This document shows positions 21,001 through 27,000 of a stretch of DNA of 62,248 bases, one piece after another (position 1 is the stretch's first letter; each line of letters begins with the position of its first letter). The stretch is from an uncultured Pseudomonadota bacterium (GTDB lineage: Bacteria; Babelota; Babeliae; Babelales; Vermiphilaceae). The DNA is taken from NCBI GenBank assembly GCA_964533545.1, contig CAZHJT010000001.1:1-62248 (forward strand). Reading direction: 5' to 3'. Made by a program: the position numbers.

Positions 21001-24000
21001 ATGCCCTCATAGTAGCAGGTGTGCGGGCCTGTTCAAAAAGGCGTATTGAGGCGGGCAACGAGGCCGTGTCTTTAGCACGCAGGCTCAAAAGACAGGCTAT
21101 AAGGATCAGAAAGGGATCTCTGCCATAGCGGGCTACTATGGAAGCACTTGCAGGCTCGACCATCCGTTTTGTAGCCTCTCGCAGTACGTGGATAATGCGA
21201 ATGGCCCGCCGCCGATGGTCGACGCCCAAATCTTCAGAACTACTCATGCTTCAGCCACCCTATGCAACTGCCAACCATGTTGTTATACTGTTTTTTGGAG
21301 TATTATGGTTGGCTCAGCTTCCTGGAGGCCATTCTAAGGCAACGATTATCACAAGCGCGTATAGGCTTATGAGATCAAACCTGCATAGCGTAGCAAACAG
21401 TTTCGACATATAAAACTCCATATAAAATGGCGACCCTATAAAAAAGACGATCTTTAGTATACTTATTGTAACAATCGAGTTCAATATATCATGATAAATA
21501 TATTTGATATCTTCTATACAAGCATTGCAATTCTCGAGAACCTACAATTTTTGCTCATTATTAATACGATTTTTTTTGTTCTCAAATTCGGCATTTTTTG
21601 CAAATTAGCATCATTAAAGATTAAAAAAGAGATCACTGCGCATCGAGACTGCACACTTTTGATGGTGATTCTTGCCTGCTATATGATCCAAGACCTGACT
21701 TGGATTTTCCATTTAGCCCGAGTGCTTTGGTTTCCCGATTCAGATTACCGCCCGTATCTTTTTATAATGCGAATCACCTGGGGACTCGTTGCTTTACAAT
21801 ATCAAGCCTTATCACTCTTTATTGAAAATATGGTCAGCGAGAACAAGAGTCTTAACAGGAGACAGATTGTCTCAATGGCTATAAGTGCATGCTTCTTCTT
21901 GTTCGCTGTATGTTTAGCGATTGGTGACTTTAACTGTCTCCATCAAGACAGCCGATCTCTTTTAGAGTTTTACGTACGAAGCGCAGAAAGTTACTTCACC
22001 CTACTGATCGTAACGATCCCAAGCCTCCTATTTGTCATTCATAAAATACGCTCAGGCAATCTGCCGCGTATCCTCAACAAGCAGATCACCGTTCTCATAT
22101 CGGCTTTAATAGTCCCTATCTGGGTATCAGACCTGCTGCAAACATTTCCTCTCACCTTTTCTCCAGGCTGGACGACCAATAACTACAGCGCCGTGGGTAT
22201 TTCTACCATATTACTAACGCTTGCTGTCTACTACTCGGCACGAAAAGTGATCGCCTTTCGCTTTCTAAACTTCAACCGCCACGTGAAATCATTGGCACGG
22301 TTCAATTTTATCGATGAATTTACCGGCGTTCTTGAGAAATTGAGTCACGCGAGCAGTTACCCAGAATTAGGGCATATTACCCAAACATTGTTCAAACAAG
22401 CTTTCACCATTCCGCTCAACAAAACGAGTCTTTATATACGCAAATCGGACTGGAGCGGCAACCACTCAGACACCTTTCCATCGCACAAAACGATTGTCCT
22501 TGTCGAAGGTTTCTTAAGTCAACACACGCAACAGACCTGTGAACAGCTGCGCTCTCTAAAAATATTAATCCACGACGAAATTGAGTTTAATGCTTTCCAT
22601 GAACCGAATGAACTAAACAGGTCACTCCTCCATTTTCTTGATACGATCAATGCGGATATTTTCTTGCCATTGTATGAAAAGAATAATCTGATCGCCTATA
22701 TCATTGTCGATCGCTATGCGCAGCCAAATAAATTTTATGGCAACGCAGAACGTGATGAGATGCTCGTCTTTGCCAGCTACTTGGGCAACATTATTAATTT
22801 GCTCAAAACAAGAAACTTAAAACTGTTACTCCATCAAGAAAAGGAGCTCAAAAAAGAGCTCTATCACAAACATCAAGAAGTTAATCAATATAAAGAAAGT
22901 ATACGCTCATTTTTGCGCGAAGCTCCGCACAAAGAGATTGGCATAATCTTTTACAAAAACCGCCAATTTGTCTTTGGTAACAAAGCAGCAAAAGATCTCA
23001 TTACCTTGAACGTTAATACTCAGCAAGGGCACCCACTGTCAAAAGCATTACGCTCAATTGGCAAACAGGTTGATGAGTTTAAATCACCAGCCTCCTGTTT
23101 TGCTTCTGATGGTGCAGGCGGCAAACTGGTACTGTCTGGTGTGCCAAACCTTGAGCATAACAATGTTATTATCATGGTGTATCGTCCGGAAATTTCTGAT
23201 TTAGTCAAACAGCAGGTTGATGCGCTCAAAAACCCAACAGAGTGGGATTATTTACTCTATCTTGAAACCACCAAGTCGGGGAAATTGATCAACCAGCTTA
23301 TTCCAAGCGCTGGACAGGCATTATTAAACTTTAAAATCGATTTAATGAAAACGGCGCTCAGCAACAAAGCGATTTTATTGTATATGCCGGAAGAGGATCT
23401 TATACCTACCGTCGAGATTCTGCATCACATAAGTTTGCGTGAAACACTCCATTCAATAACGCTCAAAAGCGTTCCCCAGCATCATGAGATGGCTATCAAA
23501 CTGTTTGGCATTAACCCATTGTTTGGCATGACGAGCGAAGAGCGGCCTCTACTTGAAAAGCTTGATAAAAACGGCACCCTCTTTATACAGAACATCGATC
23601 TGTTAGACCTTGAATCACAAAACAACTTAGCGGAATTTCTTAAATATGGGCTTTATAAACAGTGTAAAAGTGATCAACGACTGACAAGCAATGCCCGCAT
23701 TATCTGCTCAACCCATAAAAACTTACTCACCCTAGTCCAAGAGAATCTCTTTTCTAAAGAGCTCTTTGAGCAACTACAAGAAACAACCTTGAGTATGCCT
23801 TCATTGCTGACTATTTCTGAACATGAATTTGGCAACCTTGCCGACTCATTAACTGAGCAAGCTCTCAAGACTACTGAGTTTAATACATTGCTGGAGCTGA
23901 CCGATCGTGACAAACTTGCCTTGATTACTAAAAGGCCGGCTAGCTTGGCTGAGTTACGTGACAAGATTCAAGTACTGCTGACGAAAAAGACGAAAGAGAG

Positions 24001-27000
24001 CAATATCTTTACCGAAGCGCCCCTTGATCCAGCCTATCAATTGACCGACCCACAACTGATCGAAGCGGCACGTTTGGGCAAGCATGCGCTCAAGGATCCA
24101 CGCATGATTACCATGTTGTGGAACAAATTTAAGAGCCAAAGCAAGATTGCTTCGTTCTTGGGCGTGAACCGTTCATCGGTCAATCGCCGATGCAAGGACT
24201 TTAATCTGATATAGCAATGCTTGCCTTAGCTAATAAATGGACGATTGCCCCATATTAGGGTACGTTTAGTACGTACACAAGCCATTTTTTTTAAGCTCTA
24301 CACAGGAATTTATGTCAAAATACGACAAATCGAAACGTTTTTCTTCCGTATGGTCTGAATCGACAACAAAGCAAGGGCAACGCAAACCCTCAGGCTCATC
24401 ACAAGGCGGCCGCCGTGGGCAAGCACGCCCGGTTAAAAAGTTTAACCCTTCAGATTTTATAAAAAAAGTTGAAGAGCAGGTTGCCGCCCCTGTCTATACC
24501 CCTAAACATCAGTTTTCAGACTTTTTAATTACCGAACAGGTAAAACGCAATATCGCCAAAAGAGGCTATGTTACTCCAACCCCTATTCAAGACCAAGCGA
24601 TCCCCTATCTACTTGAAGGGAAAGATCTGATTGGCAGTGCCAATACTGGTACCGGTAAAACGGCTGCTTTCTTGATCCCGTTGGTTGATAACCTTATCAC
24701 CAAAAAAACGAGCCGTGTGCTCATTATGACCCCGACCAGAGAGCTTGCTGCCCAAATTCAGGCAGAGCTTGCAGTCTTTAAAGAGCATACCGGCTTTAGC
24801 TCAGCCCTCTGTATTGGTGGTCTTAATATAAACCCTCAGATCAACCATCTTGCAAAGGATCCAGCCTTTGTTATCGGCACACCCGGTCGTTTAAAAGATT
24901 TAGAGCAACAGGGTTACTTGCGACTCGGCAAATATACCTCTATCGTGCTCGATGAAGTTGATACGATGCTTGATATGGGATTCTTGCATGATATGAAATA
25001 TATCATTGCTAAATTGCCACAAAACAGACATTCATTGTTCTTCTCCGCTACCATTTCACCGACAATCAAACAGGTTATGGATGGCTTTCTGCGCAACCCG
25101 GTTTCGGTAAGCGTTAAAACGCGCCAGTCGGCTGAAAATGTAAATCAGGATATTGTCACCGTTACTGCGCACACAAAACTTGATACCTTACACGATCTCT
25201 TGATCAAGCCTGGATTCACCAAAGTTATTATTTTTGTACGCACTAAACGTGCCACTGATAAGTTAGCCAAGCAATTGAAAGAGCGTGGCTTTGAAGCTAC
25301 CGCTATTCATGGTGACAAGTCACAAGAGCAGCGCAAGAGAGCATTGGCATTATTCAAAAATAATACCGTTAAAATTCTGCTTGCTACCGACGTTGTTGCT
25401 CGTGGTATCGATATTGATGATGTGTCACATGTGATTAACTACGATTTACCACAATCACATGAAGATTATATTCACCGTATTGGCAGAACTGGACGTGCGA
25501 ATAAGATCGGCCAAGCGCTGACCTTTATTGAGCAGGAATAATAAGGTTCTGTGCAAGGCAGTTTAATCGAATCATACTTAGACTTACTGCTAAATTTCAT
25601 ATCAATAAGTTTCTTCTTGGGTCATCCCAGCGCAGGCTGGGATCCATGCTGTTGTATTATTCCGTATAAAGTTATTGCTAGAGCGAGCTTGAGCGAAAAA
25701 AGCAAAATCAGAAACACGCTGTTGGGAGACCCATAAAGATCTCTCTTCCTGATAAAAATGCAATTATTTCACAGCATGGATTCCCCGTCTTCGCTCTGCG
25801 AGCTACGCCGAGGCAGGCTACCTGCGCCTTGTCCGGCATAGCCTTGGCGACGACGGAAGGAATGACCCGAGGTTACAAGAAGGCATTATTCGTCAAACAA
25901 GTATCGGTTATAGCCCGAGCAGGAAACATAACTGCCTTCGTGATATACGTATAAAACTTTTGCAAAACAGCAAAATAGAATAAGCTATGCCTGAATTGTT
26001 GTAGTATATTCTGCTCAAACGAGGCCATCTTCATGCTGCCAAAAGAATTTAAAACCCACTGTGATGATTTTTTGTCATACATTGAAGTTGAACGGCGCAT
26101 GGCCACCAATACACAACGAGCATACGCCGGCGACCTCAAACAGTTTCTCCTTTTCTGGGAACAGCTAACACCCGACGAGATCGAAAGCTTATCACCACGT
26201 CAGGTGGTCGAGCGCTATCTCGTGAGTCTGTTTTATAAAAAAATAGACAAAAGCTCGATTGCACGGAAATTTTCGTGCTTCAAATCACTTGAAAAATTCT
26301 TACGTCCGCGCGGCATTGCGCTCGATTTCAAACTCACGCGACCACGTGTTGACAAGAAGTTACCCGTCTACTTAAGTGTTGACGAAATCTTCCATCTGCT
26401 TGATACGGTTAAAAATAGCGAACTCCCTTCATTGCGACCAGTACGCGATAAAACGATTTTAGAGCTTCTGTATGCAACCGGTATGCGTTGCTCAGAGCTC
26501 GTTAACGTGCAATGCAAAAATCTTGATATAGAAGAGAAAACGATTCTGATTGTGGGTAAAGGGAACAAGCAGCGCATCGTACTGTTCGGCGAGAAGGCGA
26601 AAAAAAAGATCTTAGAATATCTGATGCATGAACGCCCTCCCGTGATGAACAAAGATGAATATCTTTTTCTCAATAATCGCGGCACTAAATTAACCAGTAG
26701 AACGGTGCAACGGATTTTTGAAATGTTCAGAAGTTTCTTACAACTGGGGCGCCAATTAACGCCGCACAAAATTCGCCATTCCTTTGCAACGCATCTGCTG
26801 AACGAAGGGGCTGATCTACGCGTCGTGCAGGAACTTCTTGGGCACAAAACATTGTCCAGCACTGAAAAATATACGCATGTCTCACTAGACAAACTCAGCA
26901 GAATGTATGACACGATACATCCATTACATACGATTATCAAAAAAGACACACAGGATACCTGAACGAGATGCATCTTTCATCAACGACCACCAATAAAATT

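What a model noticed while it worked through the whole genome (the two positions that open the first line are those of the whole stretch)
21491..24214. Membrane-bound sigma-54-type activator with a dead ATPase in a phylum without sigma-54
g00020 (907 aa) joins a multi-helix membrane domain, GAF- and PAS-like domains, an enhancer-binding AAA domain without Walker A, Walker B acids or GAFTGA, and a Fis-type HTH. It is one of the few conserved regulators of Babelota, which lack sigma-54, so it must act as a sigma-54-independent one-component membrane sensor.
Evidence so far: Full-length ortholog in 66 of 81 genomes, often duplicated; sigma-54 DNA-binding family over cut-off in 0 of 81. Among 120 homologs GAFTGA 0, GxxGxGK 1, HTH nearly invariant. 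Model shows the helical N-part and alpha/beta domains.
(Added by a program. Inside this text positions count along the whole contig: contig position 1 is position 1 of the stretch shown here. "Call 12" and the like, gene names such as g00115 and contig names such as C1 are that model's own, and its searches are not shown. The text may have been shortened before it was handed on; [...] marks where a part breaks off. The agent that wrote the report below was given it as the finding of a first reader that could run no searches.)

Follow-up and report, generated by a model that had tools for sequence, protein, structure and literature searches.

The report
Peptide-paired seven-helix membrane gene regulator
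This gene of a host-dependent Babelota bacterium encodes a predicted GPCR-shaped membrane receptor fused to a DNA-binding regulator whose ATPase motifs are lost, and it sits back-to-back with an overlooked 31-residue export-type peptide gene that is likely its signal, which would be a new layout of bacterial peptide signalling.

Summary
Observation confirmed. The 907-aa protein has seven membrane helices with a GPCR-like predicted fold (Z 16.5), then GAF, PAS, an enhancer-binding AAA domain lacking Walker A, the Walker B acids and GAFTGA (0 of 129 full-length homologs keep GAFTGA or GxxGxGK), and a conserved HTH. It is in 97 of 121 Babelota genomes; both sigma-54 families are over cut-off in 0 of 121. 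Such a gene faces 146 of 157 regulator copies (55 of 506 control genes). About a dozen precursors repeat the core internally, and the core co-varies with the membrane domain (0.19 against 0.10 for matched cytoplasmic columns). Most likely an exported-peptide receptor fused directly to a sigma-70 regulator. The scan noted this family and the peptide before in other genomes (at least 10 notes).

The parts
21491..24214 (+). Regulator gene, 907 aa: 7TM - GAF - coiled coil - PAS - ATPase-dead bEBP AAA - HTH
21515..22273 (+). Seven-helix membrane domain (res 9-261), GPCR-like predicted fold, N-out/C-in by the positive-inside rule
   Evidence: GPRC5D 9ima_A Z 16.5, rmsd 3.9, 219 aligned, 10% id; 40 of 50 rows are GPCRs or GPCR-like designs; K+R 5, 3, 4, 5 in L1, L3, L5, C-tail against 0, 0, 1, 0 in N-term, L2, L4, L6; no Pfam family in more than 1 of 109 members
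22292..22825 (+). GAF domain (res 268-445)
   Evidence: Z 11-12 to phytochrome, PtsP and KdpD GAF domains, rmsd 3.1-3.9 over 132-184 residues; GAF_2 weak in 10 of 108 members
22928..23191 (+). PAS domain (res 480-567), after a coiled coil at res 443-476
   Evidence: SrrB PAS 7jl6_B Z 10.8, rmsd 2.6 over 82
23288..24010 (+). bEBP-type AAA domain without P-loop, Walker B acids, GAFTGA or conserved arginine fingers
   Evidence: DmpR Z 19.4, NtrX Z 19.1
24050..24199 (+). C-terminal helix-turn-helix (res 854-903); 'Fis-type' rests on its place in the bEBP layout and a sub-threshold HTH_50 match
21314..21409 (-). Unannotated 31-aa peptide gene: basic N-region, hydrophobic stretch, Pro-Pro tail; GGAG ribosome site at 21416-21419
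   Evidence: only such ORF in the genome; synonymous changes at both Pro codons and the stop in a relative's contig
21456..21486 (-). Sigma-70-type promoter of the peptide gene (-35 at 21484-21479, 17 nt, -10 at 21461-21456) with conserved flanks around the -35 (candidate operator); a +strand -10-like hexamer at 21458-21463 overlaps it
20558..21247 (-). Endonuclease III (nth), conserved neighbour downstream of the peptide; probably not part of the module
   Evidence: present behind 71 of 105 peptide-bearing copies with enough flank, absent behind 34

Best explanation
The protein is a membrane-embedded DNA-binding regulator without ATPase or sigma-54-contact motifs, encoded back-to-back with a small export-type peptide gene, and it likely works as a one-protein peptide receptor: the peptide would be exported and trimmed to a short Pro-Pro core that binds the outer face of the seven-helix domain and switches sigma-70 transcription. 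Shown by sequence or comparison: the domain order, the loss of ATPase and GAFTGA motifs, no sigma-54 in the genomes searched, the paired peptide gene with its own sigma-70 promoter, internal repeats of the peptide core, and co-variation of the core with the membrane domain. Predicted: the GPCR-like, GAF and PAS folds and the N-out topology. Inferred, not shown: export and cleavage (the genome has signal peptidase I and an M50/RseP-type protease), binding of the core to the 7TM domain, relay through GAF, coiled coil and PAS to an AAA domain that now serves as a dimer or oligomer scaffold, binding of the HTH at the peptide promoter's extended -35, and use as a density or developmental signal inside the protist host. 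Whether binding activates or represses is open.
For: Pairing: 146 of 157 non-redundant regulator copies have a divergent small ORF with a ribosome site, 126 with Pro-Pro, against 55 and 18 of 506 control genes of G000 under the same rule; median distance 86 nt, median length 33.5 aa, 137 of 146 with a basic N-region, 135 hydrophobic. Each tandem paralog tends to keep its own peptide: 15 of 20 second copies by the strict rule. About a dozen precursors repeat a 6-11-residue core two to five times after a signal-like N-terminus; intragenic duplication and a basic/hydrophobic/short C-terminal layout are described for RRNPP propeptides (PMC10075063, passages). Twelve different Pro-Pro codon pairs occur in 96 genes, so selection is on the protein. 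Co-variation in 114 pairs: the four residues around Pro-Pro track the membrane domain (Spearman 0.19) more than variability-matched cytoplasmic columns (0.10; 0 of 100 draws reach it), whereas the peptide's hydrophobic part shows no such preference (0.21 against 0.19) and the gap persists without the basic-residue clade and long tails (0.20 against 0.13, 85 pairs). In G050 five paralogs with changed HTH helices each face a different non-Pro-Pro peptide. Conserved polar and aromatic residues (D68, W71, R94, W97, E159, Q217) lie in the outer half of the predicted bundle. Promoter: 138 of 176 loci score at least 12.5 against 115 of 880 shuffles; all four -35 flank positions match in 56 of 95 family promoters and 2 of 124 other promoters of G000. 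Processing enzymes present.
Against: No experiment and no structure shows binding. Co-variation is modest, is as strong for the inner as for the outer half of the helices (0.18 and 0.19), and column-level mutual information is not clearly enriched in the outer half and is driven by one paralog clade; pairs are related, so the draws are controls, not probabilities. Many short peptides, the window's included, lack a clear A-x-A cleavage site, and some second-paralog peptides are barely hydrophobic. 11 of 157 copies have no detectable peptide, and several distant ones have 70-120-aa secreted ORFs with no short core. No palindromic operator was found; the -35 flanks may reflect the regulator's translation start, and other genomes are more AT-rich than the G000 control. 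The genome-wide promoter pattern gives 9 hits against 1-6 in 10 shuffles, too weak for a regulon. GAF and PAS are more conserved than the 7TM domain and could be the real input. A 5-7-residue peptide would have to cross an outer membrane to signal between cells (diderm envelope: PMC6561590, passages).
Confidence: 0.55

Rival explanations
1. The peptide stays in the inner membrane uncut and binds the 7TM domain as a tethered inhibitor or feedback modulator (as MgrB does for PhoQ; comparison recalled, not from a call), so the module reports on export, proteolysis or membrane state within one cell.
For: Most peptides have only 1-3 residues after Pro-Pro and no clear cleavage site (tail of 1-3 in 85 of 114). 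Co-variation is equal for inner and outer helix halves. An overlapping divergent promoter suits a feedback loop.
Against: Multi-copy cores behind a signal-like N-terminus make little sense for one tethered ligand. The hydrophobic stretch does not co-vary specially with the membrane domain.
Confidence: 0.2
2. The regulator senses a host or metabolic small molecule (through the 7TM pocket, GAF or PAS) and the peptide is only its regulated output, for example a secreted effector acting on the protist host.
For: GAF and PAS are real and conserved. Some distant loci carry longer secreted ORFs in the peptide's place. Five promoter-pattern hits lie 37-101 nt upstream of genes, four of which begin with signal-like N-termini.
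Against: The core tracks the membrane domain specifically; paralogs each keep a private peptide variant; hypervariable flanks around a fixed Pro-Pro suit a specificity code better than a host target.
Confidence: 0.17
3. The small ORF is a Pro-Pro ribosome-stalling leader that controls the downstream nth gene and is unrelated to the regulator.
For: nth follows the peptide in 71 of 105 copies; an RNA-library contig spans the peptide and the start of nth; Pro-Pro stalling without EF-P is established knowledge (recalled).
Against: 34 of 105 peptide-bearing copies have no nth behind them, and second-paralog peptides run head-on into the first paralog's 3' end; tails and repeats vary widely; the ORF follows the regulator, not nth.
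Confidence: 0.03
4. The protein is a low-specificity membrane-to-nucleoid tether or nucleoid organiser rather than a signal-responsive transcription factor.
For: No clear palindromic operator; near-invariant HTH; nucleoid condensation in free cells is described (PMC6561590).
Against: Paralog expansion with diverging HTH helices and peptides; patchy loss in some genera; fixed pairing with a peptide promoter.
Confidence: 0.05

Closest known systems
Atypical, sigma-54-independent enhancer-binding proteins (NtrX, VpsR, TyrR, PhhR, HupR, HsfA)
   Same: bEBP AAA fold plus C-terminal HTH, no GAFTGA, work without sigma-54; VpsR also has a changed Walker B and binds next to the -35 (PMC6158489, passages). 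NtrX is the best Foldseek match and spans res 610-903 in NCBIfam.
   Different: Those are soluble proteins with a receiver or small-ligand domain. Here the input is a fused seven-helix membrane domain with GAF and PAS, Walker A is lost as well, and a peptide gene is paired with it.
RRNPP peptide signalling (Rgg/SHP, Rap/Phr, PlcR/PapR, AimR/AimP)
   Same: One receptor gene beside one small propeptide gene with basic, hydrophobic and short C-terminal regions; intragenic duplication of the mature peptide; one-component logic (PMC10075063, passages).
   Different: RRNPP receptors are cytoplasmic TPR proteins of 250-500 aa that need peptide re-import, described from Firmicutes. This receptor is a 900-aa membrane protein without TPRs in a diderm parasite.
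Two-component peptide signalling (ComX-ComP-ComA; Agr type recalled)
   Same: Multi-helix membrane sensor facing an exported peptide.
   Different: No kinase and no receiver domain: G000 has none. Sensor and DNA-binding output are one chain. No sequence link to those sensors was found.
Transmembrane transcription regulators (ToxR, CadC, TcpP class)
   Same: One-component regulators that bind DNA from the membrane (PMC10269533, passages).
   Different: About 56% are single-pass; the searched text has no mention of sigma-54-type, Dependentiae or seven-helix examples (supplements not read). Here the HTH is C-terminal behind a dead AAA domain.
HisKA_7TM-GAF sensors and eukaryotic GPCRs
   Same: Predicted seven-helix fold aligns with GPCRs at Z 14.6-16.5; language-model neighbours of res 1-445 include HisKA_7TM plus GAF clusters at 0.90-0.93.
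   Different: Identity 5-12%; no Pfam HisKA_7TM match in 109 members; a profile search of 1.84 billion proteins gives only 410 hits. A shared fold shows neither descent nor function.

Membership tests
Classical sigma-54 activator (bEBP) | bEBP-type AAA fold | tested here: met
Classical sigma-54 activator (bEBP) | GAFTGA loop | tested here: not met
   0 of 120, 0 of 129, 0 of 150
Classical sigma-54 activator (bEBP) | Walker A and Walker B acidic pair | tested here: not met
   GxxGxGK 0 of 129; D at 700 in 1, E at 701 in 1 of 129
Classical sigma-54 activator (bEBP) | sigma-54 in the same genome | tested here: not met
   0 of 121 over cut-off for PF04552 and PF04963
Atypical sigma-70 bEBP (NtrX/VpsR/TyrR type) | bEBP fold and HTH without GAFTGA | tested here: met
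Atypical sigma-70 bEBP (NtrX/VpsR/TyrR type) | Acts at sigma-70 promoters through a specific site | tested here: inconclusive
   Conserved sigma-70 promoter and -35 flanks next to the gene, no binding shown, no palindrome
Transmembrane transcription regulator | Membrane helices and DNA-binding domain in one chain | tested here: met
   (predicted)
RRNPP system | Adjacent small propeptide with basic and hydrophobic N-terminus | tested here: met
RRNPP system | Cytoplasmic TPR receptor of 250-500 aa | tested here: not met
   907 aa, seven membrane helices, no TPR family match
RRNPP system | Mature peptide released and bound by the receptor | not testable with these tools
   needs peptidomics and binding assays
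Two-component peptide signalling | Histidine kinase and receiver domain | tested here: not met
   no receiver domain in G000; none in the protein
HisKA_7TM (PF16927) | Pfam profile match | tested here: not met
   0 of 109 members at E 0.05; feature-level likeness only
GPCR-like 7TM fold | Structural match over the whole domain | tested here: met
   Z 16.5, rmsd 3.9, 219 residues on a predicted model; homology not shown

The most novel reading that the evidence does not exclude
A third class of bacterial peptide communication: a GPCR-fold membrane receptor wired straight to DNA through a dead AAA scaffold, reading a diffusible Pro-Pro pheromone with strain-specific flanks, by which intracellular Babelota count themselves inside a protist and time the switch from replication to release; paralog expansions would give orthogonal channels.
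Probability: 0.4. Interest if true: 0.9.

Novelty: new variant of a known kind. Interest (0 to 1): 0.72.

Why it matters
Babelota (Dependentiae, TM6) are widespread obligate parasites of protists with very few regulators (5 predicted in Babela massiliensis, PMC4378268, passage), and quorum sensing was reported absent in Chromulinavorax destructans (PMC6561590, passage; whether that genome carries this module was not checked). A review of peptide signalling lists two layouts, membrane kinase plus response regulator or cytoplasmic receptor (PMC10075063); this would be a third, in a diderm. It names a short synthesisable ligand, a promoter and a cultured carrier (strain Noda2021, locus L195), so the open question of how these parasites time their life cycle becomes testable. 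It also shows that the database label 'sigma 54-interacting transcriptional regulator' is wrong in function for the whole family.

Tried and rejected
Pfam and PDB sequence searches of the 7TM domain: nothing. NCBIfam on 35 peptides: nothing. Viral contigs: 98 pattern hits, none a relative. An active-ATPase relative with the same membrane domain: none among the best 150 of 410 profile hits; 260 weaker hits were not listed, so the origin of the domain is open. Palindromic operator search: best centre was the overlapping -10 hexamers, no dyad. The canonical/non-canonical HTH split was spoiled by truncated proteins and is not used as a count. Column-level mutual information: not pocket-specific. 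First genome scan for sister micropeptides missed its own positive control and was redone. RNA evidence: one run with a 0.05 share; two short contigs, one over the peptide gene; contigs cannot show transcription, so only the pattern of base differences is used, from a single contig at depth 2.9. NCBIfam GPMC regulator match covers only the AAA part and was not followed. A tree of AAA domains was not built. Paper searches that found no description of this family or peptide: (listings only, open-access library only; supplements of PMC10269533 and of the genome papers were not read and could list these proteins).
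Full report
Observation. The ORF at 21491-24214 (+) is real and intact, 907 aa. 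Pfam sees only the second half of a sigma-54 activator domain and a sub-threshold HTH. Against LuxO the P-loop, the GAFTGA loop and the Walker B acids are all replaced. This is a family trait: GAFTGA and GxxGxGK occur in 0 of 120 database homologs, 0 of 129 full-length genome copies down to about 25% identity and 0 of 150 cluster representatives. The HTH recognition helix is invariant at seven positions in 120 of 120 close homologs.

Distribution. 100 of 121 phylum genomes match. Three matches are weak hits to another protein, leaving 97. A profile search of the remaining 24 found no member: these are all sampled genomes of families f9-f12, f15 and f16, four of f8, and one each of f3 and f4. 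Among the 74 titled loci, those with an informative name are Dependentiae, Babeliales or TM6; the rest read 'bacterium', 'uncultured Pseudomonadota' or 'Proteobacteria'. Sigma-54 DNA-binding and core-binding families are over cut-off in 0 of 121, with controls ringing in 4 of 14. One 33-aa RpoN-box-like piece at a contig end in G003 scores just under cut-off; its neighbouring gene looks foreign, so I read it as likely contamination (inference). G000 has one Sigma70_r2 match and no receiver domain.

Anatomy. The full model (pLDDT 81, pTM 0.50) has seven N-terminal helices. They align to GPCRs across the whole domain (best Z 16.5, rmsd 3.9, 219 residues, 10% identity), above the level the tool gives for common helical bundles but not proof of descent. 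Basic residues fall in loops 1, 3, 5 and the C-tail, so the N-terminus is predicted outside and the rest in the cytoplasm. The AAA part matches DmpR and NtrX (Z 19). The 7TM profile finds only 410 proteins among 1.84 billion, and the best 150 all fit this same layout or are fragments of it; no Pfam or PDB sequence match exists. Language-model neighbours include HisKA_7TM-GAF proteins, a lead only.

The missed partner. Earlier scan notes pointed to a tiny neighbouring gene, and I tested it. In the window it lies at 21314-21409 (-), 31 aa, with a GGAG site, starting 81 nt from the regulator's start. It is the only ORF of this kind in the genome. By eye 28 of the 30 best loci have one, against 23 of 3000 random windows (the script's count of 29 includes one spurious hit). 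Over 157 non-redundant regulator copies, 146 face a small ORF and 126 of these contain Pro-Pro; the same rule passes 55 and 18 of 506 control genes. Eleven copies have none. The Pro-Pro is written with 12 codon pairs in 96 genes, and a relative's contig differs synonymously at both prolines, a tyrosine and the stop, while changing the residues at -1 and +2 (one contig, depth 2.9).

Why a signal. The peptides have a basic start, a hydrophobic stretch and a short tail. About a dozen repeat the core two to five times behind the signal-like part; both features are described for RRNPP propeptides (PMC10075063, passages). Tandem paralogs mostly keep a private peptide (15 of 20 by the strict rule), and five G050 paralogs with altered HTH helices each face a different peptide without Pro-Pro. 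In 114 pairs the residues around Pro-Pro track the membrane domain better than variability-matched cytoplasmic columns (0.19 against 0.10), while the hydrophobic part of the same peptide does not discriminate (0.21 against 0.19), which argues against mere linkage. Against this: the effect is modest, equal for inner and outer helix halves, not resolved to pocket columns, and the pairs are kin. No complex could be folded.

Promoter. A sigma-70 promoter for the peptide sits with its -35 a few bases before the regulator's start codon (window: 21484-21456). It scores at least 12.5 in 138 of 176 loci against 115 of 880 shuffles. Four flank positions around the -35 all match in 56 of 95 family promoters and in 2 of 124 other G000 promoters; they persist in distant family f5, which keeps the usual HTH, and are weak in the G050 paralogs (few cases, one genome). 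This is a candidate operator only: no dyad was found, and the same bases lie in the regulator's translation start. The pattern hits 9 places in G000 against 1-6 in shuffles; five lie 37-101 nt before genes, four with signal-like N-termini, too weak to call a regulon.

Mechanism. Most likely the peptide is exported, trimmed by signal peptidase or an RseP-type protease (both present), and bound by the outer face of the 7TM bundle; the change passes through GAF, coiled coil and PAS to the dead AAA scaffold and HTH, which act on sigma-70 promoters including the peptide's own (confidence 0.55; every step after gene structure is inferred). Rivals: a tethered membrane modulator (0.2), a regulated output with another input (0.17), a nucleoid tether (0.05), a stalling leader for nth (0.03; nth is absent behind 34 of 105 peptides). 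Sigma-54 independence and loss of ATPase motifs are about 0.95.

Origin, a lead. Thirteen of 121 genomes, all of f10 (7), f12 (5) and f15 (1), carry a receiver-AAA-HTH protein closest to NtrX, and none of these has the 7TM regulator. It keeps Walker A but lacks the GAFTGA loop and mostly has the same K-N in place of the Walker B acids. A shared ancestor that had already left sigma-54 is plausible but untested.

Comparison and novelty. It works like an atypical bEBP (PMC6158489, passages) and is a transmembrane transcription regulator by definition (PMC10269533, passages). It fails membership of classical bEBPs, RRNPP and two-component peptide systems. Ten searches of the open-access library, eight aimed at this question, listed no paper describing the family or peptide (listings only). 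Papers seen: PMC6561590, PMC6158489, PMC10269533, PMC10075063, PMC4378268 as passages; PMC8812299 whole; no supplements. The scan itself has noted the family and the peptide in other genomes. I class what is shown as a new variant of a known kind; if the peptide is a diffusible ligand it is a third layout of peptide signalling (probability 0.4, interest 0.9). Overall interest 0.72.

Noticed in passing
L134:856-2145, L135-L140 (G080, G076, G041, G046, G114, G060, G031): NtrX-like receiver-AAA-HTH protein between an ABC ATPase and a MoxR-like gene, in 13 of 121 genomes (f10, f12, f15) that lack the 7TM regulator; no GAFTGA loop, Walker B acids replaced, Walker A kept. Partner kinase not looked for.
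   Followed up: partly
L121, L122, L123, L125, L127, L128 (G050): Paralog expansion with changed HTH recognition helices; each faces a Gly-rich secreted peptide, most ending near an E-F motif, often with one Cys; L127 has two peptide genes in tandem.
   Followed up: partly
L053 (G058): Two small peptide genes in tandem before one regulator, one with and one without Pro-Pro.
   Followed up: no
G000 C7:26579(-), C8:1227(+), C19:2951(-), C21:12242(-), C21:9702(-): Promoter-like sites with the same extended -35 as the peptide promoter, 37-101 nt before genes, four with signal-like N-termini; candidate targets, statistically weak.
   Followed up: partly
L037:43-144 (G003 C8): 33-aa RpoN-box-like fragment at a contig end beside a gene that looks foreign; probably contamination.
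   Followed up: partly
window 24312-25541 and 26033-26962: A DEAD-box helicase lies between the regulator and a XerC-type recombinase; in several relatives (L011, L015, L016, L018, L019, L024, L028, L030) the recombinase-like gene follows the regulator directly.
   Followed up: no
window 21463-21473: An 11-bp near-perfect palindrome in the spacer of the peptide promoter; not conserved in relatives.
   Followed up: partly
window 26968-29064: Penicillin-binding-protein-like ORF (label from sequence likeness, recalled) with a long acidic then basic C-terminal tail.
   Followed up: no
window 12603-14999 and 30088-34228: Runs of ORFs with signal-peptide-like starts and no obvious family, typical of the phylum's secreted proteins.
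   Followed up: no
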